Part shown: one piece after another, positions 517 through 33,493 of the stretch
Numbering within the stretch: the first letter of the stretch is position 1
How the letters are laid out: each line of letters opens with the position of its first letter
NCBI GenBank assembly: GCA_964645705.1
Contig: CAZYAB010000002.1
Location: 88,155 to 152,154, forward strand
Reading direction: 5' to 3'
Length of the DNA stretch: 64,000 nt
Source of the DNA: an uncultured Methanosarcinales archaeon
Lineage (GTDB): Archaea > Nanobdellota > Nanobdellia > Woesearchaeales > CAXGTL01
The notes under the pieces: model-generated
Seen by the model: the letters and a program-made list of their open reading frames with translations, nothing else
The model's database searches: none
What the model was told of the DNA's origin: nothing
Made by a program: the position numbers and the translations under genes

Positions 517-1282
517 TTGGCTTAAAAAAGCAATTGCTAATGATAAGCTTAATCCATTGTATAAACAAACAGAAGGCCATTATATAGAACCTATTTTAAT
601 ATTTGATAATGAATGGGTATTGATTAGGAATGATTGGGATTTGGTTGGAAAAGCAATTGCAGAGGCTTTTAATGTTCAATTATATGGTGGGAAACAAACA
701 AAAGAAAATTTCAAAGTTGATGTTGGTGAAGAACATCATTTACTTTATCAATGGAGCTCTGGATTAATAGAACAAGGTAAGTTTTGGGGGACTGTTTTAG
801 AAAGAGTGTATAATTTAGAACCAACAAAACAAAACATTGAAAAAATAAGTAAATGCCTAGAATTATTAACTACCGAAATAAATTATCCAATGATTGATTT
901 AGTAAAAAGATTGAAAAAAGCAGGATATAAAACAATCATGCTTTCTAATTCAACAAAAGAGATCAATGATGGCAATAATCAGAGATGTGAACAAGAAGGA
1001 TATAATTATTTTGATTTATTTGATAAGGCATATTTTTCGTTTAAAACTCATATTAGAAAACCATCTAAAGAATCATATGAAAATGTTCTTAATGATAATG
1101 GTTTGAAAGCAGAACAATGCATTTTTATAGATGACAAAGACATTAATTTAAGAGGGGCAAATGATTGCGGGATCTATGCAATAAAATATAAAATGCCAAA
1201 ATCAAATGAATCTTCTTATGAACTTGTCAGATCAGTGGAAAATCTAGAATATAAATTAAAAAGATTAGGATTAAAGTTCTAA
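494..1282 (+). CDS. HAD-superfamily hydrolase-like protein (motifs II-IV present: 'IMLSNS', 'K..PSKESY', 'IFIDDKDINLRGANDCG'; motif I degenerate)
   Basis: The C-terminal half matches the HAD motif IV 'DD' signature. The N-terminal DxD motif is not evident. Confidence 0.35.
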   Translation: MNIKEDRDWLKKAIANDKLNPLYKQTEGHYIEPILIFDNEWVLIRNDWDLVGKAIAEAFNVQLYGGKQTKENFKVDVGEEHHLLYQWSSGLIEQGKFWGTVLERVYNLEPTKQNIEKISKCLELLTTEINYPMIDLVKRLKKAGYKTIMLSNSTKEINDGNNQRCEQEGYNYFDLFDKAYFSFKTHIRKPSKESYENVLNDNGLKAEQCIFIDDKDINLRGANDCGIYAIKYKMPKSNESSYELVRSVENLEYKLKRLGLKF

Positions 1283-2211
1283 TCACTTTCTTTTTTTATC
1301 AACCCAAACAAAACAGTTGAACATAAGTGAACATTTCTTATGATCTCACCAATTCTATACAGAACAACATTTTCAATTCCTTTTTTCTTTTGCAATAATT
1401 TGTAAACATCATTCTTTAGTAATTTATCTTTAAGAACACCCACTTTGTGATTAAGTTCAATATTTTTTTTATAGAATGCATTGTAAAATGTGTTGTACAT
1501 TTCATTTGTTTCTCCAAGCAACTTAATTATGTCTTTTCCTAATTTAAATTTCTTTTTCTTATTCAGAAATGCATACAAATAATAATAAGCATGATGAGCA
1601 ATTGACAATTTAGATACTAGATAGAACAATAAATAAGAATCTTTTGTACCTTCTATCTTGTTTCTGATAATAACTCTTCTTGTAAAATTAGTATAATGAT
1701 CAACTATGTCTTTTTGTTCTTTTCTTTTCTGTAGATTTTTTAATTTACCTGACTTAATATCTTCTAACATTTCTTGTGATTCTTGTTTAATTATCAAGAA
1801 GATTTTTCTTAAGATTACGTCGAATTTTGTTGATGATGGTTCTGCAATATTTTGCACAACACAAACATCATCTGTTTCTTTTGTAACTTCAAATCCTAAT
1901 AATGTTTTTCTTGTTATTTCTTTGACATCTTCTAATTGTTGTTTTGTATGGTATTTAAGAGTAATCTTGTCAAAACCTTTTCTATATGTCTGATTTAATA
2001 TATTTCTAACTGTTCTTTCATTATAATCAGCAAGATCAAATCTAATAGCAACTTCAGGACTCTTTATATAAATTGGATGAACAATTAATTTAGAATCTTC
2101 TTCATTTATCTGTAATTCATCCCCGTATTTTAACTTGTTCTCATCTATCCATTTCTTTGGTAAATAGATAGTATACCCGCCTAATCCTTGCTTTATGATT
2201 TTTCTCTTCAT
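1279..2211 (-). CDS. AbrB/SpoVT swapped-hairpin N-terminal domain protein with a PhoU-like helical C-terminus (archaeal AbrB-PhoU type regulator, paralog 1)
   Basis: The N-terminus 'MKRKIIKQGLGGYTIYLPKKWIDENKLKYGDEL' is typical of the AbrB/MazE DNA-binding fold. Paralogous to 3666-4562 and 22744-23661. Confidence 0.5.
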   Translation of the reverse strand: MKRKIIKQGLGGYTIYLPKKWIDENKLKYGDELQINEEDSKLIVHPIYIKSPEVAIRFDLADYNERTVRNILNQTYRKGFDKITLKYHTKQQLEDVKEITRKTLLGFEVTKETDDVCVVQNIAEPSSTKFDVILRKIFLIIKQESQEMLEDIKSGKLKNLQKRKEQKDIVDHYTNFTRRVIIRNKIEGTKDSYLLFYLVSKLSIAHHAYYYLYAFLNKKKKFKLGKDIIKLLGETNEMYNTFYNAFYKKNIELNHKVGVLKDKLLKNDVYKLLQKKKGIENVVLYRIGEIIRNVHLCSTVLFGLIKKESD

Positions 2212-3665: not shown

Positions 3666-4562
3666 TCAATCATCAAACTTTAATGTAAATATGTCGCCAT
3701 ATAAAGAATTCAATAATCTTGCTAGATTATGAAAATGAATAGTTGCTTTATTAACTTTTTTTGTTAATTTTATCTTATTCTTTAATCTATAAGTCATTAT
3801 AGAGTGTTCTTTGTACTTATTCACGTCATATTTATAGAATAATTCATGTGCTGCTCTTAGAATCTCTGTTATTTTATTTCTAAGTTTTCTACCTCTGTTT
3901 CTTGAACTAATATTTGAACAAAAATCTAATAATAACCACCTAAATTCATCAGATATTTTTTCTAGTCTGTCTAAAATTAAGTAATAAAGGTGGGTTTTTT
4001 TAAATTCAATGTGTCCTTTTTTCATGAGTATTCTTTGACAATAATTAATTAATTTCTTTATGTTTTTGTCTAAGGACTTTACTTGAATAGCATCAGCTTT
4101 GGCTTCTGAAAGTTCGATCAATAAAAGTAGTATTCTTCTAAATACAACTTTAAAATCTTCTTCTGATTCTTTTGTTATTTCTTTTATTATTATGTATTCA
4201 TTTTTTTGCTCAACTATTTCACAACCTATTAATTTTTGTTCTATTATCTCTATAATCCTTGACAATACTTTATTGTCGATAAAACTAATTTTTATTTCAT
4301 CAACACCTGCTCTATAGAGTCCTTGGAGAACCTTGATAATAGATCCAGCATAATCCTCAGAATTGATATTGTGTCTTTTTTGTGGTCCTTTGTGTGAAGA
4401 AATAATTATCTTATCACCAACTATGTCTAATTCGATTTTTCTTACTTTATCTAATCCTTCTTGTTTAACCCATTCTATTGGTAATGTCACTGTGTATGAT
4501 TTTCTTTTCTTTGGTCCTTGGGCTGTTAATTTCTTTTCCATATTCATTAGATATATTGCCAA
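3666..4562 (-). CDS. AbrB-PhoU type regulator paralog 2
   Basis: N-terminus 'KSYTVTLPIEWVKQEGLDKVRKIELDIVGDKIIISS', AbrB-like. The C-terminus has the same architecture as 1279-2211. Confidence 0.45.
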   Translation of the reverse strand: MAIYLMNMEKKLTAQGPKKRKSYTVTLPIEWVKQEGLDKVRKIELDIVGDKIIISSHKGPQKRHNINSEDYAGSIIKVLQGLYRAGVDEIKISFIDNKVLSRIIEIIEQKLIGCEIVEQKNEYIIIKEITKESEEDFKVVFRRILLLLIELSEAKADAIQVKSLDKNIKKLINYCQRILMKKGHIEFKKTHLYYLILDRLEKISDEFRWLLLDFCSNISSRNRGRKLRNKITEILRAAHELFYKYDVNKYKEHSIMTYRLKNKIKLTKKVNKATIHFHNLARLLNSLYGDIFTLKFDD

Positions 4563-5697: not shown

Positions 5698-6468
5698 ATG
5701 AAAATAGCAAAAGGATTGTATGACGTGATTTTTAATAATTTTAAACCTAAAGCAAAATCACATGCTTGTACTGGCAGAATCCCTGATTATACAGAAGTAA
5801 TGGAAAGATTGAATTGGGGAAGAAAAGACGAACAATTCGAAATAAACAAAGCATTTTCACAGCCAATATATGAATCATTAGAGGCAATGCTTGGCAATTC
5901 TGTGAATAAGTATGGTTCCAGAAGAAAGATTGCTGAACTAGATGCATCACTATCAATGAACAGGTTTGGTTTTGATGGTTATGCTAGACAAGTTAGAGAT
6001 GTTCAAGAAGGAACAAAAGATTTCATGGTACACGGAAGTACAAATAAGTTAGGATATCATTTGTTGATAGATAATGATAATATTGAACTTTTGGTAGAAT
6101 ATAAAAAAGATAAAAACCCAGAAATCTTTATTTTCAATAGAAATAATCTAAATGATCGTTTACATTTTAGACTTGCTAAAGATGGTTCTGTTAATGTAGT
6201 TAATTCTTCAGGCATGACATGTGGACAAGCACTCAAAGTCTTCGAAGCTTACAAACCATTCTTGATAAAACTAAAACAAAACAAGAATTTCAAAGATTTA
6301 TACAAAAAAGATGAAGATGAAGAAAAAAATCATGCACTTGCAGCTTATCTAGATGAAGCACAAATCATGAAAGAAAAAATGGAGCTTAAGAAAAGGAAAA
6401 ATGAAAGAGAAAAATACCCAAAACATGTTTACACAAGCCCTAAGCAAATTAAAATCAATTTTAAATAA
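5698..6468 (+). CDS. hypothetical protein. Its stop lies 19 nt upstream of the ARC ATPase start, so it is possibly the first gene of the Pup-like operon
   Basis: ORF with an AGAGG RBS. No recognisable motifs. Confidence 0.45.
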   Translation: MKIAKGLYDVIFNNFKPKAKSHACTGRIPDYTEVMERLNWGRKDEQFEINKAFSQPIYESLEAMLGNSVNKYGSRRKIAELDASLSMNRFGFDGYARQVRDVQEGTKDFMVHGSTNKLGYHLLIDNDNIELLVEYKKDKNPEIFIFNRNNLNDRLHFRLAKDGSVNVVNSSGMTCGQALKVFEAYKPFLIKLKQNKNFKDLYKKDEDEEKNHALAAYLDEAQIMKEKMELKKRKNEREKYPKHVYTSPKQIKINFK

Positions 6469-6487
6469 AGAACAAGGAGGATTAAAA

Positions 6488-8047
6488 ATGACTGATGAAG
6501 AAAATATAATAAATATTGGTGAAACAATAAATAGACCTGATTTAAGACAAAGGCAACCAGATTTAGCACAACAAAACCTGGCGTTAAAAGATAGGCTAGG
6601 AAAATTCGAACTTTTAGCACACAAACAAAGAGAAAAGCTAGAAGAAGCACAAGCATTTGTTCAAAAAGTTTTATCACCGCCGCACACATTAGCAACATTG
6701 CTAAATTTTAATGAAGAAGTTGCTCAGGTTGTTATGGATAATGGACAAAAATTTGAAGTTAATTATATAAACGAATTATTAGAAAATTTTGAAAAAGGTC
6801 AAAGAGTTTACCTAAACCCGCAATCATTATCAATTGTAAAAATAAAAGACAAAGAAAATCATGGTTATTGTGCTGTTATTGACGATGTATTAGAAGACAG
6901 GGTTAAGATAACTATAGATGGCAGACAAAGACTGATTGACAAAGGCAATAATGGTGTAAACATAGGTGACACTGTGATTGTTGACGCATCATTGTCAATG
7001 GTATTAGAAGGACTTGGTAAACAAAGTAAAGATTATTCTGTAAACAAGATTGAAGAAGTAAGATGGGATATGATTGGTGGTTTGGATTATGCTGTTAATG
7101 ATATAATGAAGATAATTGAAGAACCATTTTTGCATAAAGAAACATATCAAAGATACGGACTTAGCATTCCAAAAGGAATATTGCTTCATGGTCCGCCTAG
7201 ATGTGGTAAGACAATGATTGCAAAAGCAGTTGCTTATTCATTGCAAGAAAAACTTAGACAAGAATCAGAAAACCCTGATCTAAAAGGAACTTTCTTTAGT
7301 ATAAAAGGACCAGAATTCCTTAGCAAATGGGTTGGTGAAGGAGAACGTATGGTAAGAGAATTATTTGATAGAGCAAGACAAGCTTCATATGAACACCAAG
7401 GAATGCCGACTATAATCTTTTTTGATGAAGCAGAATCCTCATTCAAGAAAAGAGGATCAGACATGTCAGCGCATTACATGGATCCATTGATAAACACATT
7501 TTTAGCTGAAATGGATGGTATGAATGGTTCAGATAACTTGATCTGGATCTTGGCAACTAATAGAGCAGACCTAATGGACCCTGCAATTTTAGGCCCTGGA
7601 AGAATAGATAAAAAGATCTATATTGGTAGGCCTGACAAAAAAGCATGCCAAGCAATATTCGAGATCTATCTAAAGAATGTCCCATTATATAATTCACATA
7701 CAATCGAACAGATTGCTGAACATGCTGCATCAGAATTATTCAGTGACAAGAGAAAAATTGCACAAGTTGATTTTGTAGATGGAATGAAAGATTTTATGCA
7801 TTATAGAGACATTGTAAGCGGAGCTCTTGTTAAATCAGTTGTTGACAATGCAATCAGGTATGCAATTGAAAGAGATATTGCGAATGGTGAAAGAGGAATC
7901 AAGCAAGAAGATTTGCTAAGAGCAATTGATGAAGTAATAAAAGCAGATGAAAAGGTTTTGCCAAGCATGATTCTTAAAGATGATATTGAGAACAAGTTTG
8001 GTAAGAGGTTCCAATATATCCAAGGAATCAATCCGTATAGCGGATAG
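6488..8047 (+). CDS. arc: ARC/Mpa-like proteasome-associated AAA+ ATPase (N-terminal coiled coil, tandem OB region, AAA module)
   Basis: 'GILLHGPPRCGKTMIAKAVA' (Walker A); 'FFSIKGPEFLSKWVGEGERMVRELFDRAR'; 'IIFFDEAESSF' (Walker B); 'ILATNRADLMDPAILGPGRID'. Near-collinear with Mpa/ARC. Strong GGAGG at 6475. The start is taken at M30 of the track ORF. Confidence 0.85.
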   Translation: MTDEENIINIGETINRPDLRQRQPDLAQQNLALKDRLGKFELLAHKQREKLEEAQAFVQKVLSPPHTLATLLNFNEEVAQVVMDNGQKFEVNYINELLENFEKGQRVYLNPQSLSIVKIKDKENHGYCAVIDDVLEDRVKITIDGRQRLIDKGNNGVNIGDTVIVDASLSMVLEGLGKQSKDYSVNKIEEVRWDMIGGLDYAVNDIMKIIEEPFLHKETYQRYGLSIPKGILLHGPPRCGKTMIAKAVAYSLQEKLRQESENPDLKGTFFSIKGPEFLSKWVGEGERMVRELFDRARQASYEHQGMPTIIFFDEAESSFKKRGSDMSAHYMDPLINTFLAEMDGMNGSDNLIWILATNRADLMDPAILGPGRIDKKIYIGRPDKKACQAIFEIYLKNVPLYNSHTIEQIAEHAASELFSDKRKIAQVDFVDGMKDFMHYRDIVSGALVKSVVDNAIRYAIERDIANGERGIKQEDLLRAIDEVIKADEKVLPSMILKDDIENKFGKRFQYIQGINPYSG

Positions 8048-8065
8048 AATCTAGGAGAAAACAAA

Positions 8066-11000
8066 ATGGCAATAAAGAGGACAATTGGATCTGAAACAGA
8101 ATATGGTATTTTAGGCACTGCAAAGACTGTTAGTCAATACACTTTAGCAGACAGAGTTGTTGATGCATATATAAGAGGACAAAATCATTTTAATAGTGGC
8201 GATACTAATGAATCTGTTATAGAAGATATGACTGATGATGGACACGTAGGTGGTGACTATGGTGCTGGCAGGTCAATAAGTGTTGGTGCAAGTGGTGCAT
8301 ATCCTGCATCAAGCGGATGGGGAAGAAACTATGATTATGGTTATCAAGGAACTCATGTTGCTTACAGAACTACTTATGTGGCTCCTGCAACAACATGTGC
8401 TAGTCATGATGTTAGCAAGATGATTGAAAATGGTTCAAGATTCTATGTTGACATGGGCCATCCAGAATTATCAACACCAGAATGTGCTGGTGCTGTTGAA
8501 TTCGTAATATATGATAAAGCAGGTGAAGTAATAGTTAACCAAGCAGCTAAAAAAGCATCAAACCCAAGAAACAAGATAACTATATTTAAGAATAATTCAG
8601 ATGGAAAAGGAAAATCATTTGGATGTCATGAAAATTATCTAATGCAAAGAATGACTCAGCAAGAATTTGCTAATAAATTAGCTCCAATACTGATTCCATT
8701 TTTTGTTACAAGACAGATCTTTACAGGTTCTGGTAAAATTGGTGTTGAAAAGCCAAGTGGACAAGGTGGAATAGAACATTATAGAAGAGACATATTAAAA
8801 GATTTTGAAATCCTGAGAACACATTTTATTGGTTTAGAAGATGAATATTCAATTGTTAGAAATAATATCCATGATTTGTTTAAATTATATGATAAAAGAG
8901 TAGGAAGTCAACAAGAAATATTTCAATTATCACAAAGAGCTGATTTTATGGAATGTAGGATTGGTCTTCAGACAACATACGATAGACCATTGGTTAATAC
9001 AAGAGATGAACCTCATGCTGATAAAGAAAAATATATGCGTCTTCACGTTATAGTTGGAGATGCAAACATGTCAGAGATAGCTGATTATCTAAAAGTTGGT
9101 ACAACATCACTTGTTTTGGATTTGATAGAAGATAATTTGTTTCAACCATTTCAATTAATGGATCCTGTTACAGCTATTAAATCAATTTCAAGAGACCAAA
9201 GCATGAAATGGATAACATCATTAAAAAATGGAAAAACTGTTTCAGCAATTGACATACAAAGATGGTACCTTGCTGCTGCTAAAAATAATTATGCAGGTAG
9301 AGACGAAATAACAGATGATATTCTTGCTAGATGGGAATATGTTTTAGACACACTAGAAAAAGATCCAATGGAATTATCTGGATGGGTAGACTGGGTCTTG
9401 AAAAAAGCAATGATCCAAGATTATATGGTAAAAAATCAAGTTCCTATTAATGATCCTGCTGTAAAAAACTTAGCATTACAATTTCATGATGTTGACAGAG
9501 AAACTAGTTTGTTCTACCTAATGCAAAGAAAAGGTTTTTCAGAAAGGTTAATTTCAGATGAACAAATACTAAATGCAGTTAATAATCCTCCAGAAAACAC
9601 TCGTGCATATTTCAGAGGAATGTGGTTAAAGAAATATGATATTGATAGAGCTGACTGGGGTGAACTAGAACTAACTGTAAATGGAACAAAAGTAGACATT
9701 AACATTGACGATCCCTTCAAAGGAACTAAAAAAGATTATGAAACATTGTTTGAGAAATGTGCAAATGCAGAAGAAGCTGTTGAAGAACTTAAGAAAGAAG
9801 AATATGATGTAACAGTTGATGAAAAAACACAGTCATGGGTTTCAAGAGGAATTGGTTTTGTTAAGAATAAGATAACTGGCAAAGGTAAGAAAAAAGCAAA
9901 GTCAAAAAAGAAATCAACAAAGAAAACAGCAAAAGTAAAGAGTGCAAAAGAACTAGCAACAGACCTACAAACAAAATCAGTAAAACAAAGACAATTAGAA
10001 ATACTTGATAACAGAACAAGTCCTGGAAGACAGATTGGTCAAACAAGTAGACAGCTTAGTTTTAATGATGTTGACGAACTTAGTGATAAGGTTATGGAAC
10101 AAGCTGAAAATGATTATGTCAGGTTTCATGACAATGAACTAGTCAGGTCAGAGTATGAAGCTTTAAGGGATATTGCATTACAATACTATAACAAACCTGT
10201 TGAAGAAATTTTTTGGAATATAGGATATGAAGAATATGGTAGCTATATTAGAATTGAAGGAAGGCATGTTGTTCAATTAAATTTAAGATATCAAAATTTA
10301 GTAGAGATCCCAGAACAAATAACTAGTTTTAACAAATTAAGGCATTTGGATTTAGAAGGTAATGAAATAACAGAAGTCAGTTATGTCGCAGATTTAGAAG
10401 AATTAACATACATTGATTTACAGGGAAATCCTATAGATGTTTATAAAAGTGCAGATGTGTTGAATGAATTGCATAAAAGGGAAGTAAGAATTCGTCCTCC
10501 AAAACTAGTTGATGAACTCTGTGATCTTAATTTAGAAGATTCTGTGTCAGCAGATGGTAAAGAAGTTTATGAGTTTAATGGAGAATTATTTGTTATTACA
10601 GATGAAAAAGAACAACCACAACCATCAGAACTCGACGAAACACAAGACGACATAAGCGACGTAGTCGAAGCTGTAATTTGTGGTGGTGCTGTAGGTAATG
10701 GCAATGTTGGCGTCATAGACGTAGGCGGTGACACTGTATATTTTCATGACAGAGAATTAGTTAGAGAAGAGTATGAGGCATTAGAAGATTTAGCACAACA
10801 ATATTTTGACAAAAGTGCTGATGAATATTTTAGCACAGATCTTCGTATATTAGATCCTAATTGTTTTGTTGACATTACCAATAGTCATGTAGCATGCATA
10901 ATGTTGTGTGATACAGGTTTAGAAGAAATCCCTGAACAAATTTCAAAGTTAAGCAAATTATTAAGACTTCACATTGGATACAATAAAATTTCAGATATTG

Positions 11001-11116
11001 AGTGTACTGATCAATTAAAATCACTTGATATTTTTGGTATAACTGACAATCCACTTAATGCTAAATCAAAAACAATAGTTGATTTACTAGATAAGAGTGG
11101 TGTTAATATAATTTAA
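8066..11116 (+). CDS. Pup ligase/deamidase family (PafA/Dop-like) paralog 1 (Dop-like by gene order). It has a K-rich linker and a C-terminal duplicated module containing leucine-rich repeats
   Basis: 'MAIKRTIGSETEYG', 'GCHENYLM', 'FFVTRQIFTGSGKIG', 'LKVGTTSLVLDLIED', 'RDEITDDILARWEYVLD'. LRRs: 'LRHLDLEGNEITEVSYVADLEELTYIDLQGNPI', 'LLRLHIGYNKISDIE'. Confidence 0.85.
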   Translation: MAIKRTIGSETEYGILGTAKTVSQYTLADRVVDAYIRGQNHFNSGDTNESVIEDMTDDGHVGGDYGAGRSISVGASGAYPASSGWGRNYDYGYQGTHVAYRTTYVAPATTCASHDVSKMIENGSRFYVDMGHPELSTPECAGAVEFVIYDKAGEVIVNQAAKKASNPRNKITIFKNNSDGKGKSFGCHENYLMQRMTQQEFANKLAPILIPFFVTRQIFTGSGKIGVEKPSGQGGIEHYRRDILKDFEILRTHFIGLEDEYSIVRNNIHDLFKLYDKRVGSQQEIFQLSQRADFMECRIGLQTTYDRPLVNTRDEPHADKEKYMRLHVIVGDANMSEIADYLKVGTTSLVLDLIEDNLFQPFQLMDPVTAIKSISRDQSMKWITSLKNGKTVSAIDIQRWYLAAAKNNYAGRDEITDDILARWEYVLDTLEKDPMELSGWVDWVLKKAMIQDYMVKNQVPINDPAVKNLALQFHDVDRETSLFYLMQRKGFSERLISDEQILNAVNNPPENTRAYFRGMWLKKYDIDRADWGELELTVNGTKVDINIDDPFKGTKKDYETLFEKCANAEEAVEELKKEEYDVTVDEKTQSWVSRGIGFVKNKITGKGKKKAKSKKKSTKKTAKVKSAKELATDLQTKSVKQRQLEILDNRTSPGRQIGQTSRQLSFNDVDELSDKVMEQAENDYVRFHDNELVRSEYEALRDIALQYYNKPVEEIFWNIGYEEYGSYIRIEGRHVVQLNLRYQNLVEIPEQITSFNKLRHLDLEGNEITEVSYVADLEELTYIDLQGNPIDVYKSADVLNELHKREVRIRPPKLVDELCDLNLEDSVSADGKEVYEFNGELFVITDEKEQPQPSELDETQDDISDVVEAVICGGAVGNGNVGVIDVGGDTVYFHDRELVREEYEALEDLAQQYFDKSADEYFSTDLRILDPNCFVDITNSHVACIMLCDTGLEEIPEQISKLSKLLRLHIGYNKISDIECTDQLKSLDIFGITDNPLNAKSKTIVDLLDKSGVNII

Positions 11117-11137
11117 AACACATGGAGGTATAAAAAA

Positions 11138-11308
11138 ATGGCAGAACAAAAATTCAAAAAGTTCAGACCACTGAACGAAGTAAAAGCAGACCAAAAACCA
11201 AAGTATGAGGTTAAAGCGCCAAACTTCGATGGTGTAATGGATGAAATGGATTATCTGATTAACAAAGATAATCTAGAAAAGAATTACAAGCAAACAAGCG
11301 CAGAGTAG
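11138..11308 (+). CDS. Pup-like small protein modifier candidate (56 aa, MAEQKFKKFRPLNEVKADQKPKYEVKAPNFDGVMDEMDYLINKDNLEKNYKQTSAE)
   Basis: GGAGG 9 nt upstream. It sits where pup lies in the actinobacterial arc-dop-pup order. The C-terminal half ('DGVMDEMDYLINKDN') resembles the Pup 'DDLLDEIDDVLEEN' Mpa-binding helix, and the terminal residue is Glu. Not in the ORF track (<60 aa). Confidence 0.45.
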   Translation: MAEQKFKKFRPLNEVKADQKPKYEVKAPNFDGVMDEMDYLINKDNLEKNYKQTSAE

Positions 11309-11321
11309 TTCGGTAAAAAAA

Positions 11322-11342
11322 TGTTTTTTTTATTTTTTTTTA
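11322..11342 (+). terminator. oligo-T tract (TTTTTTTTATTTTTTTTT) immediately after the Pup-like ORF. Candidate archaeal intrinsic terminator or attenuator
   Basis: A 19-nt T-run interrupted by a single A, 14 nt after the stop codon. Confidence 0.3.
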
Positions 11343-11372
11343 AGTAAAAGAGGTTTTGTTAGACAAGAGGCT

Positions 11373-13472
11373 ATGAAAATGCCAAGACTAGAGAAAAGAA
11401 TAATAGGACTTGAAACAAAGTATGGATTCATGCGGAGAGAATCAGATAGTCGCGACTCTGATGACATTAATCTTTTGTTAAAAAGGATTGCAGAAAATGC
11501 ACAATCAATATATGGCAGAGAATTCATAGAAAATGGCGGAAGAATAGTATCTGGTGATTATTATATCAAATACTGTACACCTGAAACATCTAACCCTGTT
11601 GACTTGGTAATATATGATAAAGCAGGAGAAGAAATTATTAGTCAAAACAGTGATGGTATGAGGTTTGTAAAAGATAAAACAGGAGGAACTCAAAGTGCTT
11701 TTTCCTGCCATGAGAATTATTTAATAAGAAAAGTAAGAACAGATAGAGAAGGTTTTATGCATGATCTGGGAAAATACCTTTTAGGATTTTTAATAACAAG
11801 ACAGATATTTTCAGGACCAGGAGACATTTATGGTAGTGAATTTGTTTTGTCTCAAAACATAATGCAGGGTTTAAATGAATATGACCTTGATTCAAAACAA
11901 TATTCAATAATGAATCTTAATTATAGAAAACCACCTATTGATTCAGACAAATACAGCATGTTGCATATTACATTAAACAAAGCAAATTTATCAGAAATAG
12001 CAACATATCTCAAAGTAGGCACAACAAGCTTGGTATTGGATTTAATAGAAGATGATCTGTGTCCTTTGATAACAATAATTAACCCTTCAGAAACTGCAAA
12101 AGATATTTCAAAAGACCAAACATATCAGTGGGAAGTTTTTACAGATTATGAAGAATCAACAACTGCAATCAACATACAAAGACAATATCTAGAAGCAGCA
12201 AAACAAGCATACACAGGAAGAGACGAAATAACAGATGATATTCTTGCTAGATGGGAATATGTTTTAGATTGTCTAGAAGAAGATCCAATGCAATTAACAG
12301 GCTGGATTGACTGGATAACAAAAAGAGCATTGATTGACAATATTTTTGAAAAACAAGACCCAGAAGTAATAGATTTTACAGTACAAAAAATAGATGAAGA
12401 ACAAGAAAAAATCAAAGCCCTAGAACAAGAAATACAAGACGTGATAAATGATTTTGATAATTCACAAGATACAAATGTGTTTCAAAAACTAAGCTCAATA
12501 AAAGACATACTCGAGATTATGAAAGACGGTGTTTATAGACAAAACAGAGGATTTAAAGCAGGTTTACAAGGAATCTTAAATGAAAGATCAAAGACAGTGA
12601 AAAAGATTATATCTAATTATCCAAGGATAAAAAAAGATGAAAGCTTGTTTTATACATTACAAAACAAAGAATTAGTTGACAGATTAATAACAGATGAACA
12701 AATACAGCAAGCCATGAATGAACCACCAAAAGACACAAGAGCTTGGATCAGAGGAAACATAATAAAATCATTCATGGAAAACCCAGATGACTTGACCAAA
12801 GTAGAATGGGACTGTGTTAAGATAAATGGTAAATACTTGCCTTTTAAAAATCCATTTTCAAACCCTGTAAGGTTCAGAGAAGTTTTACCTAGACACGCGT
12901 ATTCTGAATTTGAAGATAAGATCTTAGAACAATTAGATGATTTTATTCAGATCATAAGACAGAATAATGACACAGAATTTGCAGCACACGTAAAATATGA
13001 TTTATACACTGAAATATTAAAAAATTCTGTATTTAATCATGAATTTTTAGAACAAGAACTAGACATAGACAAACCACCTGAACTTGTTGTAGGTGAAAGA
13101 ATAAAACTATATAGAAATCTTGGAACATTAAATTGCGGATCAAGTAATACTTATTTTTATGATGGAAGTGTTGAAGATATCCCATTGGGTTCAACAGGAG
13201 TAATTGAAAAAATAAGATATATATTTTCAGATCTAAAGATAAAAGTAAACTTGGACAATGGAAGATCATGGTGGCTGGATTCAAGAGAATTAATGCCATT
13301 AGCAGATGAATCAATAACAATAGATAATATTATTCATCAAACATTGTTTGGAGATATTCAAGATCTGAGAGGAACTCAAAGAGAGAGAACATATCTTGAG
13401 AGAAAAAAAGAATTAGATAATTTACTCACTAAGATTATAATAAATTACCTGGATGATATAAATGAGGCTTGA
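11373..13472 (+). CDS. PafA/Dop-like paralog 2, with a variant active-site motif (LETKYG instead of ETEYG) and a ~250-aa C-terminal extension of unknown fold
   Basis: 'RLEKRIIGLETKYG', 'SCHENYLI', 'FLITRQIFSGPGDI', 'LKVGTTSLVLDLIED', 'RDEITDDILARWEYVLD'. Confidence 0.8.
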   Translation: MKMPRLEKRIIGLETKYGFMRRESDSRDSDDINLLLKRIAENAQSIYGREFIENGGRIVSGDYYIKYCTPETSNPVDLVIYDKAGEEIISQNSDGMRFVKDKTGGTQSAFSCHENYLIRKVRTDREGFMHDLGKYLLGFLITRQIFSGPGDIYGSEFVLSQNIMQGLNEYDLDSKQYSIMNLNYRKPPIDSDKYSMLHITLNKANLSEIATYLKVGTTSLVLDLIEDDLCPLITIINPSETAKDISKDQTYQWEVFTDYEESTTAINIQRQYLEAAKQAYTGRDEITDDILARWEYVLDCLEEDPMQLTGWIDWITKRALIDNIFEKQDPEVIDFTVQKIDEEQEKIKALEQEIQDVINDFDNSQDTNVFQKLSSIKDILEIMKDGVYRQNRGFKAGLQGILNERSKTVKKIISNYPRIKKDESLFYTLQNKELVDRLITDEQIQQAMNEPPKDTRAWIRGNIIKSFMENPDDLTKVEWDCVKINGKYLPFKNPFSNPVRFREVLPRHAYSEFEDKILEQLDDFIQIIRQNNDTEFAAHVKYDLYTEILKNSVFNHEFLEQELDIDKPPELVVGERIKLYRNLGTLNCGSSNTYFYDGSVEDIPLGSTGVIEKIRYIFSDLKIKVNLDNGRSWWLDSRELMPLADESITIDNIIHQTLFGDIQDLRGTQRERTYLERKKELDNLLTKIIINYLDDINEA

Positions 13473-15084
13473 GAAAAGAATAATTGGACTTGAAACAGAG
13501 TATGGATCATTTTCACAAGATTTAGCTAGATCAAGGGATGGTGAGGATGGTCACCATGATGCACACAATAACAGACTAATAGAAACAATAAGAGAAGCAA
13601 GACCAAGAAGCGGAAACTCTTTTTTATTAAATGGTGGAAGAATGTATGAAGATTGTGGCCATATTGAATATTGTACACCAGAAACAACTAATCCTGTTGA
13701 CTTGGTTTTATATGAAAAAGCAGGAGAAAGATTGCTTAACCAGCATTCAAGAGGAGTTATGTTTATCAAGAACAATGTTGCTGCAAATAACAGTACATTT
13801 GGATGTCATGAAAATTATTTAATCAAAAGGCCTGAACATTTTATAAATGAAGTAGGAAGATATCTAATGTCATTCCTAGTAACAAGACAAATCTATGCAG
13901 GAACAGGAGATATTTATGAGAATAAATTTAGAATATCACAAAAATCAAGATTTATTACCGAAAACTATGGTAAAAATACAACCAGAGATAGACCAATAAT
14001 CAATCTAAAAGATGAATCTCATTGCGGTGGTAAAGAAAGCGAGAATTATAGATTACATCTTATATTAGGCGATTCAAATTTATCAGAAATAGCAACTTAT
14101 CTAAAAGTAGGTACAACAAGCTTAGTATTGGATTTGATTGAAGATGGAATTTGCCCTTACATTAGTTTATACAATCCTGTTTATGCTCTTCATGAGATTT
14201 CACAAGACTTGACATTTAAGATAGAAAATAAAATAAATGATTCCAGACCAATGACAGCAATCAACATACAAAGACAATATCTAAAAGCAGCAAAAAAAGC
14301 ATACACAGGAAGAGACGAGATTACTGACGATATTCTTGCTAGATGGGAATATGTTCTGGATTGTTTAGAAACAGATCCAATGAAACTTGACACATGGATT
14401 GATTGGGTTATAAAGAAAAGCTTGATTGATAAAAGTCTTGATAAGAATAGTAATTTTAGTGAAACAATTAGAAAAGAATTAGTTAATTTACAACAAAAAA
14501 TAGCATCCGCATATCAAAAAATATCAGAATCAAAAACATTATTATTACCAGATAACCAAATAATCAGAGCAGATAATTTACTTATTCAAGCAATGTCTAG
14601 TATTACGAACATAATTGATGAAGATGTTTATTCACCTATTAAAGAATTTGTAAATGGTAGAAATTTTGAAGAGTTTGATGTAAACAAGATATCAAAAAAT
14701 ATTTCATACAAATATCATAGTACTGATCCTAATAATAGTTTATTTTATTTTTTACAAAACAATGGCATGATTGACAGACTAGTATCAGATGAACAAATAA
14801 CGCATGCTGTAAATAATCCTCCTCAAGACACAAGAGCTTGGGTCAGAGCAAAAATTTTGTCAGAAATAAGAGGATTAGGAGGATCAGTAGAACAAATGGA
14901 TTGGTCAGCGATCAGTGTTTATCATCCTAATCTTAGTGGTGGAAGAGTTATGAAACCTAAATGTGCTAGATGCAGTGCAGACTGTAAAGGTTATGTTAAT
15001 TCAAATGGAAAAGAGTTTGATCTTACAGATCCTTTTGACAATAAAAAACAAGAATATGAAGAAATGGTTAGAGACATTCGTTAG
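13462..15084 (+). CDS. PafA/Dop-like paralog 3 (canonical ETEYG). Overlaps paralog 2 by 11 nt and has a short Cys-containing tail
   Basis: 'MRLEKRIIGLETEYG', 'GCHENYLI', 'FLVTRQIYAGTGDI', 'RDEITDDILARWEYVLD'. The tail is 'CARCSADCKG'. Confidence 0.8.
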   Translation: MRLEKRIIGLETEYGSFSQDLARSRDGEDGHHDAHNNRLIETIREARPRSGNSFLLNGGRMYEDCGHIEYCTPETTNPVDLVLYEKAGERLLNQHSRGVMFIKNNVAANNSTFGCHENYLIKRPEHFINEVGRYLMSFLVTRQIYAGTGDIYENKFRISQKSRFITENYGKNTTRDRPIINLKDESHCGGKESENYRLHLILGDSNLSEIATYLKVGTTSLVLDLIEDGICPYISLYNPVYALHEISQDLTFKIENKINDSRPMTAINIQRQYLKAAKKAYTGRDEITDDILARWEYVLDCLETDPMKLDTWIDWVIKKSLIDKSLDKNSNFSETIRKELVNLQQKIASAYQKISESKTLLLPDNQIIRADNLLIQAMSSITNIIDEDVYSPIKEFVNGRNFEEFDVNKISKNISYKYHSTDPNNSLFYFLQNNGMIDRLVSDEQITHAVNNPPQDTRAWVRAKILSEIRGLGGSVEQMDWSAISVYHPNLSGGRVMKPKCARCSADCKGYVNSNGKEFDLTDPFDNKKQEYEEMVRDIR

Positions 15085-22747: not shown

Positions 22748-23661
22748 CTCTTAATTATACCAATCAATGCACTGCTGCAATGATAAAACATTCTTATTGT
22801 ATTAATTAAATAATGAATTACAGGTTTTTCATTGTCTTTTTTAGAATCAAGGCTTTTTATGCCAAACTTGAATGCATAAGTAGTCTCAATGTTATGTATG
22901 TCTTTAACAATATTCAAATCTTTTGTAACATAAAGTGAATGTAATTTATCTAATTGTTCTTTAGAAGCTTTTAATAGTTTTCTGATGTCTGAATTCATTT
23001 TTATCTTGTTTCTATAAACATGATCATTAAGAAAACCAAGATTTCTTACTGCGAGTGTTATGTTTGATAAGAATAACCAATAAATAGGTGCAAGTTTAGT
23101 AGAAAATAGACCTTTTGAAATACATCTTCTTAAGAAATTAGCATATTTATGAACACTTATTGCAAGTTCTTCTGCTTCTTTGAATTCTTGTCTTTTCCTT
23201 TTTGTGATATTGGTTTCTAATATTCTTATTATTTCTTTTAAAATAAAGAATTCTTTGTTAATTATAGTATTAAAATTCTCAATACTTGGCTCTGTTATTG
23301 ATTCTATAACGCAATCTTTGTCAGATCTTGATTTTATGTCAAAACCTATGATTCCTGTTTCAACTGTTTTTTTGATTGTTTTTAGTGCTTTTTTATCTTC
23401 AAATTTAATAGTAATTTTGTCATATCCTTGCCTGTAAAGGTTGACAATCACTCTTCGTATGATGCTCTGTTCTGATATTGGCAATTTAACTGTTGTTTCT
23501 AATCTTTGTTTTTTTTTCTTTGACTCAATCACTAGTTTATTATTCTCTTCATCGACGTCAACTTCGTCTCCTGCTTTTAATCCAATCTTATTAATCCACT
23601 TCTTAGGAACATAGATTGTCAAGCCACCGCCTCCGCCTTGCTTGATCAATTTTCTTTTCAT
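22744..23661 (-). CDS. AbrB-PhoU type regulator paralog 3
   Basis: N-terminus 'MKRKLIKQGGGGGLTIYVPKKWINKIGLKAGDEVDV'. Collinear with 1279-2211. Confidence 0.5.
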   Translation of the reverse strand: MKRKLIKQGGGGGLTIYVPKKWINKIGLKAGDEVDVDEENNKLVIESKKKKQRLETTVKLPISEQSIIRRVIVNLYRQGYDKITIKFEDKKALKTIKKTVETGIIGFDIKSRSDKDCVIESITEPSIENFNTIINKEFFILKEIIRILETNITKRKRQEFKEAEELAISVHKYANFLRRCISKGLFSTKLAPIYWLFLSNITLAVRNLGFLNDHVYRNKIKMNSDIRKLLKASKEQLDKLHSLYVTKDLNIVKDIHNIETTYAFKFGIKSLDSKKDNEKPVIHYLINTIRMFYHCSSALIGIIKS

Positions 23662-23830: not shown

Positions 23831-24055
23831 ATGGAGATGATGACTATGTCAAGATACAAAACAAAACATACAGGCATGAAAACAATAATACTGTCTGCAA
23901 TAGGGGCATATGCACTAACTAAATTTATGTGTCCTGATTTTGATATCCTTCCTGATTTTAATTATGATAAATCAACAGAAGTGTATCAAACAAGACAAGC
24001 ACAAGAATTCCAACATCCTGTGATTGGAATCACAACTGAGCATAATAGAGGTTAA
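23831..24055 (+). CDS. small membrane protein (74 aa). First gene of a long co-directional array
   Basis: ORF containing a hydrophobic helix 'IILSAIGAYALTKFM'. Confidence 0.3.
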   Translation: MEMMTMSRYKTKHTGMKTIILSAIGAYALTKFMCPDFDILPDFNYDKSTEVYQTRQAQEFQHPVIGITTEHNRG

Positions 24056-24059
24056 TAAA

Positions 24060-24953: not shown

Positions 24954-24965
24954 GAGGTTAAGAAA

Positions 24966-26128: not shown

Positions 26129-26129
26129 A

Positions 26130-27598: not shown

Positions 27599-27868
27599 GT
27601 GGATAAACAAATGTTTGAAAAAAAACCACAACAATATGGAGTAGTAATGCTTAGTAAAGATCAAGACATTAGTTATAAGATTTCACAGATCTTTAATGAT
27701 AATAATGGACAAGTAGATTTGCGCGTCATGTGTCAAGAACTGTTATTGAGATTTAATTTTCTTCCAATGAGATTTGTCTCTGCTGACAAAGAAAAAAAGA
27801 TTTCAAATTACAGAGAATTAGGTCTTTCTCTTTACCCAATAATTGATAATATAATCTATGAAAAATGA
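27599..27868 (+). CDS. small hypothetical protein
   Basis: ORF with tight coupling on both sides. Confidence 0.35.
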   Translation: MDKQMFEKKPQQYGVVMLSKDQDISYKISQIFNDNNGQVDLRVMCQELLLRFNFLPMRFVSADKEKKISNYRELGLSLYPIIDNIIYEK

Positions 27869-30605: not shown

Positions 30606-30607
30606 AA

Positions 30608-31553: not shown

Positions 31554-31554
31554 A

Positions 31555-32133: not shown

Positions 32134-32136
32134 AAA

Positions 32137-33490: not shown

Positions 33491-33493
33491 AAA

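What the first reader, a model, noticed from the sequence alone, without database searches (positions are those of the whole stretch)
8066..11116. Dop/PafA-family enzyme fused to a duplicated leucine-rich-repeat module
The first ligase-family paralog is 1016 aa, twice the normal size. After the catalytic core and a Lys-rich linker (KGKKKAKSKKKSTKKTAK) it carries two copies of a ~200-aa module. Each copy begins 'FHD(N/R)ELVR(S/E)EYEAL' and contains canonical LRRs (LxxLxLxxNxI). An LRR substrate- or partner-recognition domain on a Pup-family enzyme is unusual. It suggests targeted tagging or de-tagging of specific proteins, possibly surface or host proteins. The N-terminal region also contains a G/Y-rich low-complexity insertion (residues ~40-110).
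Basis: seen in the sequence. Interest (0 to 1): 0.65.

Follow-up and report, generated by a model that had tools for sequence, protein, structure and literature searches.

The report
Archaeal Dop-like enzyme with LRR tail
A small symbiotic-type (DPANN) archaeon carries a bacterial-style Pup protein-tagging gene cluster, and its tag-removing (Dop-like) enzyme has gained two small leucine-rich-repeat binding modules that no other family member I examined has at its C-terminus.

Summary
ORF 8066-11116 (+) is an intact 1016-aa gene, and the identical protein is on four public contigs, so it is not an assembly chimera.

- **Catalytic core (residues 1-~579):** a complete Pup_ligase-fold domain. It resembles the depupylase/deamidase Dop more than the ligase PafA (330 vs 231 bits to solved structures). 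It also has the Dop-type GLQTT alpha-loop and all catalytic residues.
- **Tail:** a Lys-rich linker is followed by two diverged copies (36% identity) of a ~128-aa unit. Each unit is a helical N-cap plus three LRRs plus a capping helix. Each copy passes Pfam LRR_8 on its own. Copy A models at pLDDT 88 and matches only LRR structures.
- **Context:** the gene sits in an mpa-dop-pup-pafA cluster, and this gene order is conserved in other DPANN archaea. The adjacent 56-aa Pup homologue ends in Glu, so no deamidation is needed.
- **Relatives:** their Dop-like genes stop after a short basic tail. None carries LRRs.

Best reading: a depupylase tethered by LRR adaptors to particular partners or substrates. 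The fusion and the folds are shown here. The activity and the targets are inferred. This is a new variant of a known kind.

The parts
8066..11116 (+). Whole gene: Dop-like enzyme with a C-terminal double LRR tail (1016 aa, stop codon included)
   Evidence: The ORF is intact. The identical protein is on 4 public contigs. A GGAG Shine-Dalgarno-like motif lies 8 nt upstream of the ATG.
8066..9802 (+). Pup_ligase-fold catalytic core, Dop-like (residues 1-~579)
   Evidence: Pfam PF03136 E 1.2e-137. NCBIfam Dop 431 bits vs PafA 346 bits. Solved Dop structures 4b0r/5lrt 330 bits vs PafA 4b0t 231 bits. Residues equivalent to Acidothermus Dop are present: E8/E10 as E10/E12, R90 as R125, Y92 as Y127, D94 as D129, H155 as H188, T217 as T303, R227 as R313, H241 as H327, W453 as W531.
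8183..8419 (+). Insertion at the Dop-loop position (residues ~40-118). The first half is conserved in DPANN orthologues (TNESxxxxxTDxGGHxGGDYG). The second half is an expanded G/S/A/Y-rich stretch.
   Evidence: Alignment A1. Composition G12 S9 A8 Y7 of 79 residues. Definition of the Dop-loop taken from PMC8599861.
8750..8914 (+). Second clade-specific insertion (residues ~229-283), between Acidothermus Dop residues 193 and 197
   Evidence: There is a gap in the PDB alignment between query residues 229 and 283. The insertion is shared by DPANN Dop-like orthologues and absent from actinobacterial Dop and from the PafA-like paralogues.
9803..10111 (+). Linker 1 (residues 580-682), with a Lys-rich core at residues 606-623 (nt 9881-9934). 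It is probably disordered.
   Evidence: 19 Lys in 103 residues. No Pfam domain. DPANN orthologues end here with short basic tails such as KNTKYHRSKKSK. A short 12-nt A-rich tandem repeat lies at 9890-9933.
10112..10501 (+). LRR module A (residues 683-812): N-cap helix FHDNELVRSEYEALRDIALQYY, a beta-hairpin, three LRRs and a C-terminal capping helix
   Evidence: LRR_8 33 bits and LRR_4 36 bits when scanned alone. PDB sequence hit 4u09 at E 8e-14. The AF2 model has pLDDT 88 and pTM 0.83. Foldseek top hits are all LRR proteins at probability 1.00.
10502..10729 (+). Linker 2 (residues 813-888): acidic, then Gly/Val-rich
   Evidence: D10 E10 G9 V11 in 76 residues. No domain hit.
10730..11113 (+). 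LRR module B (residues 889-1016): a diverged duplicate of module A
   Evidence: 36% identity to module A, E 2e-19. LRR_8 27.7 bits alone against a cutoff of 27. PDB hits 4u08 at 5e-07, plus LRRD1 and Rsu1.
11138..11308 (+). Pup homologue, 56 aa, C-terminus ...NYKQTSAE. Part of the same system.
   Evidence: It aligns with the small ORFs at the same position in DPANN clusters, which end QSSGQ, QSSAQ, QKGGQ and QLGGQ. It was called as a gene on 5 contigs. GGAGG lies upstream and an oligo-T tract lies downstream at 11324-11342. There is no hit to any Pfam model, Pup included.
6401..8047 (+). Mpa/ARC-like AAA+ ATPase, immediately upstream
   Evidence: NCBIfam pup_AAA TIGR03689 354 bits, below the equivalog cutoff of 504.75. 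It holds the same position in relatives. Its C-terminus ...GINPYSG lacks the GQYL ending that I recall for Mpa.
11373..13472 (+). PafA-like paralogue 2 (699 aa), with degenerate catalytic motifs and a ~200-aa C-terminal extension of unknown fold
   Evidence: The motifs are changed: GLETKYG; YxDxxHPE becomes IVSGDYYIKY; NTRDEPH becomes NLNYRKPP. Pup_ligase 256 bits. The extension has no Pfam hit.
13462..15084 (+). PafA-like paralogue 3 (540 aa), without a Dop-loop and with motifs largely intact: the candidate ligase
   Evidence: Alignment A1. Pup_ligase 363 bits. It shares HIEY, NGGR and K-for-R227 with the DPANN PafA-like genes. It shares a ~75-aa insertion with paralogue 2.

Best explanation
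The gene encodes the Dop-type enzyme (depupylase/deamidase) of a Pup system carried by a DPANN-type archaeon.

**Architecture**
- A full, catalytically intact Dop-like core is joined by a ~100-residue Lys-rich linker, probably flexible, to two mini-LRR domains.
- Each mini-LRR domain is an N-cap plus three LRRs plus a capping helix.
- An acidic, Gly-rich spacer separates the two domains.

**Likely activity**
- The neighbouring Pup already ends in Glu, so the deamidase step is not needed.
- The enzyme most likely acts only as an isopeptidase that removes Pup from lysines.

**Likely role of the LRR modules**
- The LRR modules most likely act as built-in adaptors. They would hold the depupylase on one or two particular partner proteins or complexes.
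- Pup removal would then be concentrated on selected targets or at a selected place.

**Shown here:** gene integrity, the fusion, Dop-like identity of the core, the LRR fold, and membership of an mpa-dop-pup-pafA cluster.

**Inferred:** depupylase activity (by homology and conserved residues), the adaptor role of the LRRs (by analogy with other short LRR domains), and an intracellular site of action.

**Unknown:** the partner.
For: **Core identity**
- Dop scores exceed PafA scores in NCBIfam (431 vs 346 bits) and against solved structures (330 vs 231 bits).
- The insertion before beta2 lies at the Dop-loop position, and GLQTT matches the Dop alpha-loop with T217 (definitions from PMC8599861).
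- All active-site residues are kept.

**System**
- The order AAA ATPase, Dop-like, small Pup homologue, PafA-like recurs in four DPANN loci. Two of these loci sit beside archaeal RNA polymerase or ribosomal protein genes.
- The Pup homologues align and end in Gln in the relatives but in Glu here.

**Fusion**
- The identical ORF is on 4 contigs, and the junction is reproduced in another sample.
- Relatives end with a short basic tail where the linker begins here.

**LRR**
- Each module passes LRR_8 alone.
- The exhaustive profile search gave 46,201 hits at E<=1e-3; in the 150 best listed, the best-matching stretch lies in the LRR part of the profile.
- The model of module A has pLDDT 88, and the top 50 Foldseek hits are all LRR structures. 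These include small enzyme-tethering or adaptor LRRs: CCR4 (7ax1, 4b8c), Rsu1 (7d2t), TAP (1ft8) and SHOC2.

**Rarity**
- No other of 255 family ORFs in the fetched loci has a comparable C-terminal extension.
Against: - No activity data exist for any archaeal Dop-like enzyme.
- The NCBIfam Dop score is below the equivalog cutoff (431 < 492.3).
- The Trp that is highly conserved in actinobacterial Dop-loops (W47) has no conserved counterpart here.
- With a Glu-ended Pup and atypical PafA-like paralogues (K for R227; one copy dead), this enzyme could have a different or additional role.
- No partner could be identified. There are no homologues of the LRR tail, so there is no co-variation and no conserved neighbourhood specific to the tail.
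- The predicted concave-face residues differ between the two modules, whereas the N-cap is the best-conserved part (62% vs ~26% identity). The binding surface may therefore not be the canonical one.
- Module B and the linkers were not modelled with confidence.
Confidence: 0.55

Rival explanations
1. The enzyme works, mainly or also, as the Pup ligase of this organism, and the LRR modules select the proteins to be tagged. This would be an E3-like targeted tagging device.
For: - Pup ends in Glu and is ligation-ready without Dop.
- Paralogue 2 has lost its catalytic motifs. Paralogue 3, like the DPANN PafA-like genes, carries K in place of R227 and other substitutions.
- Paralogues 2 and 3 also score higher against Dop than against PafA, so the Dop/PafA split in this clade is not the actinobacterial one.
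- PMC8599861 reports that Dop can be converted towards ligase activity by removing the Dop-loop and swapping the alpha-loop.
Against: - This protein keeps both features whose removal converts Dop into a ligase: the Dop-loop insertion and the GLxTT alpha-loop.
- It sits in the dop position of the conserved cluster.
- A loop-less PafA-like gene with the Mg/ATP-binding motifs intact (paralogue 3) is present.
Confidence: 0.15
2. The LRR modules are not substrate selectors. They would be assembly or regulatory elements that dock the enzyme onto other parts of the same system (the AAA ATPase, the dead paralogue 2 with its extra C-terminal domain, or the enzyme's own core as an autoinhibitor).
For: - This genome uniquely combines the LRR tail with an extra, catalytically dead PafA-like paralogue that has its own ~200-aa extension. 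Relatives have neither.
- The N-cap is the most conserved part of the two modules, which fits a shared docking site.
- The oppositely charged linkers (Lys-rich, then acidic) could fold back.
Against: There is no direct evidence. No complex prediction was possible, and the co-occurrence rests on a single genome.
Confidence: 0.2
3. The cluster is a conflict or immune system, and the LRRs sense an invader protein, as in NLR or ROCO-type sensors.
For: - The only other LRR plus Pup_ligase fusion found (P0042) is Ubl-LRR-Roc-COR-Pup_ligase. It lies next to a TIR protein and bacterial E1/E2/RING-like genes.
- A Ser/Thr kinase, receiver-like proteins and AbrB/MazE-like genes lie nearby in the window.
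Against: - PADLOC gives only generic AAA, methyltransferase and kinase domain hits, and none for the three Pup_ligase-fold proteins.
- The core four-gene cluster is conserved in DPANN genomes beside housekeeping genes.
- No effector domain such as TIR or a nuclease was found among the cluster proteins scanned with Pfam.
Confidence: 0.07
4. The long ORF is an artefact: an assembly chimera or a sequencing frameshift joining a dop gene to a separate LRR gene.
For: One 1.5-kb ENA contig carries a stop (TAT>TAA at 9610) and diverges at its 3' end inside module B.
Against: - That stop lies inside the catalytic core, in the conserved TRAYFRG motif, not at the junction. The same contig reads through the core-linker-LRR junction in frame.
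- The identical intact 1016-aa product is on 4 longer contigs in three repositories.
- GC content is uniform across the gene.
- The two modules are only ~73-77% identical at the DNA level over short stretches, so repeat collapse is unlikely.
Confidence: 0.03

Closest known systems
Dop (depupylase/deamidase of Pup), Actinobacteria; structures 4B0R, 5LRT, 7OXV-7OYH
   Same: - Same Pup_ligase / glutamine-synthetase-like fold.
- 330 bits to Acidothermus Dop.
- Insertion at the Dop-loop position, GLxTT alpha-loop, and the same catalytic residues.
- Same gene position, between the AAA ATPase and pup.
   Different: - The host is archaeal.
- The score is below the NCBIfam equivalog cutoff.
- The Dop-loop sequence is different and longer (79 aa), with no conserved W47.
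- There is an extra 55-aa insertion at residues 229-283.
- There is a 437-aa C-terminal extension with two LRR modules.
- No proteasome-subunit gene turned up in the window ORFs I scanned or in the called genes flanking the relatives' clusters.
DPANN 'PafA2 family' Dop-like proteins (P0001-P0024; annotated Candidatus Nanoarchaeia / Aenigmarchaeota)
   Same: - 41-47% identity by BLASTP to the full protein (42-52% over the aligned core in A2).
- Same two insertions.
- Same four-gene cluster.
- A basic C-terminal tail.
   Different: - They are 563-668 aa and stop after the basic tail.
- None has LRRs.
- Their Pup ends in Gln.
- In the four relatives' loci examined there is one PafA-like gene, against two here.
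P0042: Ubl-LRR-Roc-COR-Pup_ligase protein (NCBI assembly GCA_024449685.1)
   Same: It is the only other protein found that joins LRRs to a Pup_ligase domain. It also sits between an Mpa-like AAA ATPase and a small Pup-like ORF ending in EGQ.
   Different: - Its LRRs are N-terminal and form part of a ROCO GTPase module.
- Its neighbourhood has TIR, E1, E2 and RING-like genes.
- It is only 37% identical in the core, so it is an independent fusion.
Cap-plus-LRR units of bacterial multi-LRR proteins (P0204, P0211, P0259), and short adaptor LRR domains in solved structures (CCR4 LRR 7AX1/4B8C, Rsu1 7D2T, TAP/NXF1 1FT8, OsSERK2 4Q3G)
   Same: - The unit begins with an 'EYxAL...Y' helical cap, followed by a hairpin and LxxLxLxxN repeats.
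- In the multi-LRR proteins the cap+LRR unit recurs many times along one chain (P0204, P0211, P0259).
- The solved structures above are small LRR domains; CCR4's sits in the CCR4-CAF1 complex.
   Different: - Here there are only three repeats per unit.
- The cap motif FHDxELVRxEYEAL has no close relative. No homologue of the whole module was found among 5.8 billion clustered proteins at E<=0.001 apart from the protein itself.
- The LRRs are attached to a Dop-like enzyme.

Membership tests
Pup_ligase superfamily (PafA/Dop, Pfam PF03136) | Full-length match to the family profile above the curated cutoff | tested here: met
   460 bits against a cutoff of 25; residues 5-531 match profile positions 1-437 of 441.
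Pup_ligase superfamily (PafA/Dop, Pfam PF03136) | Nucleotide/Mg2+ and catalytic residues: GxExE, RxYxDxxHPE, HENY, NTRDEPH, RLH | tested here: met
   The protein has GSETEYG, NGSRFYVDMGHPE, CHENY, NTRDEPHAD and RLHVIVGD.
Dop (depupylase/deamidase) | Dop-loop: an insertion of 40-65 residues preceding strand beta2, absent from PafA (PMC8599861) | tested here: met
   A 79-residue insertion lies at that position. It is shared by DPANN orthologues and absent from paralogues 2 and 3 and from the DPANN PafA-like genes.
Dop (depupylase/deamidase) | Conserved first half of the Dop-loop, including W47 | tested here: not met
   The first half is conserved within the DPANN clade but with a different motif (TNES...TDxGGHxGGDYG). 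No conserved Trp aligns with W47.
Dop (depupylase/deamidase) | Alpha-loop before beta7 with T217 contacting the Pup C-terminus | tested here: met
   FMECRIGLQTTYD aligns with Acidothermus Dop FFEVEVGLETTLK. T303 and T304 are invariant in the 16 DPANN sequences.
Dop (depupylase/deamidase) | NCBIfam TIGR03688 equivalog score | tested here: not met
   431 bits is below the cutoff of 492.3. It is still higher than the PafA model score of 346 bits.
Dop (depupylase/deamidase) | Gene context: next to pup and the Mpa/ARC ATPase | tested here: met
   The order is AAA ATPase 6401-8047, this gene, then Pup homologue 11138-11308. The same order occurs in four DPANN loci.
Dop (depupylase/deamidase) | Isopeptidase/deamidase activity on Pup | not testable with these tools
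   This needs a biochemical assay.
PafA (Pup ligase) | No Dop-loop; best match to the PafA models | tested here: not met
   The loop is present. The PafA score is lower than the Dop score in both NCBIfam and PDB searches.
Leucine-rich repeat (LRR) domain | Repeated LxxLxLxxN motifs matching LRR profiles above the curated cutoff | tested here: met
   LRR_8 scores 52 bits for the whole protein, 33 bits for module A and 27.7 bits for module B, against a cutoff of 27. The exhaustive profile search found 46,201 proteins at E<=1e-3; in the 150 best listed the best-matching stretch lies in the repeat part of the profile.
Leucine-rich repeat (LRR) domain | Curved beta/alpha solenoid fold | tested here: met
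   Module A: the AF2 model has pLDDT 88 and pTM 0.83, and the top 50 Foldseek PDB hits are all LRR structures (probability 0.97-1.00). Module B was not modelled separately. The single-sequence run failed (pLDDT 34.5). Its LRR fold is inferred from 36% identity to module A.
Pup (prokaryotic ubiquitin-like protein): the neighbouring 56-aa ORF | Small protein next to dop, with a C-terminal helix-forming region and a terminal Gln or Glu | tested here: met
   It aligns with DPANN cluster ORFs ending KGGQ, LGGQ, SSGQ and SSAQ, and itself ends TSAE. It does not reach any Pfam model, and the penultimate Gly-Gly is absent.

The most novel reading that the evidence does not exclude
This would be the first Pup-pathway enzyme with a built-in substrate or partner recognition domain. 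An archaeal depupylase would be steered by two different LRR adaptors to specific proteins, giving the Pup system target-specific erasure, a property so far associated with ubiquitin systems. Because the organism is a DPANN-type archaeon, the partners could include proteins involved in its dependence on a host cell.
Probability: 0.25. Interest if true: 0.75.

Novelty: new variant of a known kind. Interest (0 to 1): 0.55.

Why it matters
Papers on pupylation stress that a single ligase and a single depupylase handle hundreds of substrates without dedicated recognition subunits (abstracts of PMC10465538 and the 2026 bioRxiv preprint listed). A Dop-type enzyme with its own protein-binding modules would be a natural example of adaptor-directed Pup removal. 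Its partner could be found by pull-down.

The gene also belongs to a complete mpa-dop-pup-pafA cluster in an archaeon. Similar clusters occur in other DPANN genomes. In the text library available here, I found no paper that mentions pupylation together with these lineages. Pupylation outside Bacteria may therefore be under-described.

No proteasome-subunit gene turned up in the window ORFs I scanned or in the called genes flanking the relatives' clusters. The ATPase also lacks the C-terminal docking motif I recall for Mpa. This raises the question of what Pup tagging leads to in these cells.

Tried and rejected
1. **Searches for the same fusion elsewhere.**
   - The C-terminal 347 aa, searched against 5.8 billion clustered proteins, found only a fragment of the protein itself.
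   - A profile of the two modules gave one weak LRR hit (E 0.27).
   - Scans of GTDB genomes, JGI metagenomes and IMG/VR with the tail or the whole protein found nothing.
They are not exhaustive.
2. **Single-sequence AlphaFold of residues 676-1016** failed (pLDDT 34.5). Nothing was taken from it.
4. **The exhaustive profile search** was swamped by long multi-LRR proteins. It therefore says 'LRR' but not which subfamily.
5. **Pfam scan of the 56-aa ORF, linker 1 and the paralogue-2 extension:** no credible hits.
6. **PADLOC scan of ten cluster proteins:** only generic domain hits.
7. **Assembly or frameshift artefact:** rejected.
8. **Organism name:** no source names the contig. The archaeal assignment rests on the aCPSF1 equivalog (871 bits), on the best homologues of the Dop-like protein being the only named archaeal hits (DPANN annotations for P0001 and P0024), and on archaeal RNA polymerase and ribosomal genes beside two homologous clusters.


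Full report

The ORF at 8066-11116 on the + strand is intact and encodes 1016 aa. Pfam places a complete Pup_ligase domain at residues 5-531 (E 1.2e-137) and LRR_8 at 52 bits, above its cutoff of 27. The Lys-rich string KGKKKAKSKKKSTKKTAK begins at residue 606. The motifs FHDNELVRSEYEAL and FHDRELVREEYEAL begin at residues 687 and 893.

The two copies align over residues 683-810 and 889-1015. The BLOSUM62 local score is 192, and tblastn gives 36% identity at E 2e-19. No further copy exists in the window. The conserved unit is therefore about 128 aa.

At the DNA level the copies share only short stretches of 73-77% identity. This is an old duplication, not an assembly repeat.

**2. Is the fusion an artefact?**

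No. The identical 1016-aa product is recorded on four contigs in NCBI, JGI and ENA, the longest 236,815 nt. One is a separately assembled 40-kb JGI contig that ends just after the small downstream gene.

A 1.5-kb ENA contig from another sample covers window 9316-10817 and reads from the catalytic core through the linker into the LRR region in the same frame. It has one substitution (TAT>TAA at 9610), which lies inside the conserved TRAYFRG motif of the core, and unrelated sequence at its last 28 bases. GC content is even across the gene.

**3. What is the N-terminal part?**

- **Similarity.** It is closer to Dop than to PafA. NCBIfam gives 431 vs 346 bits, both below the equivalog cutoffs. Against solved structures it scores 330 bits to Acidothermus Dop (4b0r/5lrt) and 231 bits to Corynebacterium PafA (4b0t).
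- **Dop-loop.** According to PMC8599861, the feature that separates Dop from PafA is the Dop-loop, an insertion of 40-65 residues before strand beta2. In the alignment with DPANN orthologues, an actinobacterial Dop and the PafA-like genes, this protein has a 79-residue insertion exactly there (residues ~40-118). Its first half is conserved among the DPANN orthologues (TNES..TDxGGHxGGDYG). Its second half is expanded here. The Trp that is highly conserved in actinobacterial Dop-loops has no conserved counterpart.
- **Alpha-loop and catalytic residues.** The Dop alpha-loop (FFEVEVGLETTLK, with T217 contacting the Pup C-terminus) is matched by FMECRIGLQTTYD. The equivalents of E8/E10, R90, Y92, D94, H155, R227, H241 and W453 are all present.
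- **Second insertion.** A 55-residue insertion at residues 229-283 is shared with the DPANN orthologues only.
- **End of the core.** The core ends near residue 579, where the alignment to Dop stops seven residues before the Dop C-terminus.

**4. What is the C-terminal part?**

After the core come four segments:

| Segment | Residues | Character |
|---|---|---|
| Linker 1 | 580-682 | 19 Lys in 103 residues; no domain hit |
| Module A | 683-812 | cap + three LRRs + capping helix |
| Linker 2 | 813-888 | acidic, then Gly/Val-rich |
| Module B | 889-1016 | diverged duplicate of A |

- **Profile evidence.** Each module passes the LRR_8 gathering score on its own, at 33.0 and 27.7 bits. Both hit solved LRR proteins by sequence: A hits 4u09 at 8e-14, and B hits 4u08 at 5e-07.
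- **Exhaustive search.** A profile of A+B, searched against 1.84 billion representatives, gave 46,201 hits at E<=1e-3. In the 150 best listed, the best-matching stretch lies in the repeat part of the profile, mostly positions ~57-118. The only sequence matching the whole unit strongly is a fragment of this protein.
- **The cap.** A few hits extend into the cap. They are large bacterial proteins that repeat a unit 'EYxALxxxYxxTxGxxW...W.GV...V..L.L..N.L' many times. The module is thus a helical N-cap, a hairpin, three LRRs and a capping helix.
- **Structure.** AlphaFold on the whole tail without an alignment failed (pLDDT 34.5). Module A, run with a four-sequence alignment, gave pLDDT 88 and pTM 0.83. 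The top 50 Foldseek hits in the PDB are all LRR structures (probability 0.97-1.00). They include OsSERK2 (136 aligned columns, TM 0.54) and small adaptor LRRs such as the CCR4 LRR, Rsu1, TAP and SHOC2.

Between the two modules, the N-cap is the best-conserved part (21 of 34 positions). The repeat region is about 26% identical, and the predicted concave-face positions differ. The two modules probably do not bind the same surface in the same way.

**5. Surroundings**

- **The organism is an archaeon.** The window encodes aCPSF1 at 871 bits against an equivalog cutoff of 580. The best homologues of the Dop-like protein carry the only archaeal source names, Candidatus Nanoarchaeia and Aenigmarchaeota.
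- **Upstream** lies an Mpa/ARC-like AAA ATPase.
- **Downstream, after 21 nt,** lies a 56-aa ORF with its own GGAGG motif, followed by an oligo-T tract.
- **Synteny.** In four DPANN loci the order is the same: AAA ATPase, Dop-like gene (565-668 aa), small ORF, PafA-like gene (435-479 aa). Two of these loci sit beside archaeal RNA polymerase or ribosomal protein genes.
- **The small ORFs are Pup homologues.** They align with one another, and those of the relatives end ...QKGGQ...QLGGQ...QSSGQ and ...QSSAQ. The window's ends ...KQTSAE. A terminal Glu is the ligation-ready form, so the deamidase step is not needed here. This last point rests on established knowledge of the pathway.
- **Two PafA-like genes.** Paralogue 3 (13462-15084) keeps most motifs. 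Paralogue 2 (11373-13472) has lost them: GLETKYG, IVSGDYYIKY for YxDxxHPE, and NLNYRKPP for NTRDEPH. It also carries a ~200-aa extension with no Pfam hit.
- **No proteasome genes seen.** No PF00227 hit turned up among the window ORFs I scanned or among the called genes in the relatives' loci.

**6. How the fusion arose**

The DPANN orthologues end with a short basic tail (for example KNTKYHRSKKSK) at the point where the Lys-rich linker starts here. The simplest history is that about 1.3 kb encoding the two LRR modules was added in frame at the 3' end of dop, before pup.

The fusion is rare:
- Among 255 Dop/PafA-family ORFs in the 169 loci fetched, only this protein has more than 160 aa after the core.
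- Among the 120 listed homologues, the only other LRR-containing one is P0042. In P0042, LRR-Roc-COR lies N-terminal to the Pup_ligase domain, in a neighbourhood with a TIR protein and E1/E2/RING-like genes. That is an independent event.

**7. Mechanism**

- **Shown:** an intact Dop-like catalytic domain, two LRR domains on long charged linkers, and a complete Pup gene set around it.
- **Inferred:** the enzyme removes Pup from lysines, and the LRR domains hold it on specific partners. Depupylation would then be directed rather than general. I give this reading 0.55.
- **Rivals:**
  - LRR-directed ligase: 0.15.
  - LRRs as assembly or regulatory elements within the system, perhaps with the dead paralogue 2: 0.20.
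  - Immune sensor: 0.07. PADLOC gives only generic hits.
  - Artefact: 0.03.
- **Surface or host targets.** The protein starts directly with the catalytic-core motif. By analogy with Dop it would need nucleotide and Pup conjugates, which argues for action inside the cell.

**8. Novelty**

The parts are known families. The combination is new in the data I could search, and I found no homologue of the tail. I rate it a new variant of a known kind.

Three searches of the available text library found no paper that links pupylation with DPANN lineages. That library lacks most subscription journals, so absence there is weak evidence.

Noticed in passing
window 6401-15084; loci L003, L005, L088, L089: A complete Pup gene set (Mpa-like ATPase, Dop-like, Pup, PafA-like) occurs in an archaeal genome. 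The same four-gene order recurs in other DPANN contigs, two of them beside archaeal RNA polymerase or ribosomal genes. No proteasome-subunit gene was seen in the flanks. No paper in the searchable library links pupylation with these lineages.
   Followed up: partly
window 11138-11308 (+): The 56-aa Pup homologue ends in Glu (TSAE), whereas the homologues in related clusters end in Gln (KGGQ, LGGQ, SSGQ, SSAQ). It lacks the Gly-Gly and is missed by the Pfam Pup model.
   Followed up: yes
window 11373-13472 (+): The second Pup_ligase paralogue has lost the catalytic motifs, so it is a likely pseudoenzyme. It has a ~200-aa C-terminal extension with no Pfam match. Paralogues 2 and 3 share a ~75-aa insertion that the DPANN PafA-like genes lack.
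   Followed up: partly
window 9281-9439 vs 12236-12314 and the matching part of 13462-15084: The three paralogues share near-identical stretches (GRDEITDDILARWEYVLD; SEIAxYLKVGTTSLVLDLIED). Over residues 406-458, paralogue 1 is closer to paralogues 2 and 3 (64-66%) than to its own orthologue (57%). This hints at gene conversion within the genome.
   Followed up: partly
L087 2126-6730 (protein P0042) and neighbours: A 1534-aa Ubl-LRR-Roc-COR-Pup_ligase protein sits in a cluster with an Mpa-like ATPase, a TIR protein, a Pup-like ORF ending EGQ, a second Pup_ligase, Prok-RING, ThiF (E1) and a UQ_con-like (E2) gene. This would be a mixed Pup and ubiquitin-like cluster.
   Followed up: partly
one search hit list (P0030, P0036, P0043, P0044, P0052, P0054, P0055, P0107, P0118; P0089; P0071; P0049): Other unusual Pup_ligase domain combinations appear in uncultured lineages. 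Partners include the proteasome subunit domain PF00227, the Pup domain PF05639, PF13280 and ABC ATPase domains.
   Followed up: no
window 6401-8047 (+), C-terminus: The Mpa-like ATPase ends ...GINPYSG, and the L003 homologue ends ...NGCKNGA. Neither shows the C-terminal GQYL-type docking motif that I recall for Mpa, so coupling to a 20S proteasome is uncertain.
   Followed up: partly
window 20528-22747 (+): A Ser/Thr protein kinase has three nearly identical ~62-aa C-terminal tandem repeats (..AYVDVNNGDWRYVKSYFDYDLQTNLNKHQHKSNGTIIDVTDLNIVKDTFIPT..). A Pkinase gene also lies close to the Pup cluster in L005.
   Followed up: no
window 1279-2211 (-), 3666-4562 (-), 22744-23661 (-): Three ~300-aa paralogues each have an N-terminal AbrB/MazE-type domain. 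They flank the Pup cluster region.
   Followed up: no
window 44491-47538 (-): A 1015-aa ORF has no Pfam or NCBIfam hit. It lies in the window's most GC-rich stretch (0.366 against ~0.30).
   Followed up: no
window 60816-62075 (+): A full-length serpin (PF00079, E 1e-117) is encoded in this archaeal contig.
   Followed up: no
window 24024-34282 (+): A run of about 15 co-directional ORFs. None of the 11 scanned has a Pfam hit (two of them also lack NCBIfam hits).
   Followed up: no
L001 position 295 = window 9610: A short ENA contig from another sample carries TAA instead of TAT inside the conserved TRAYFRG motif of the Dop-like core. This is either a low-coverage error or a rare null allele.
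   Followed up: partly
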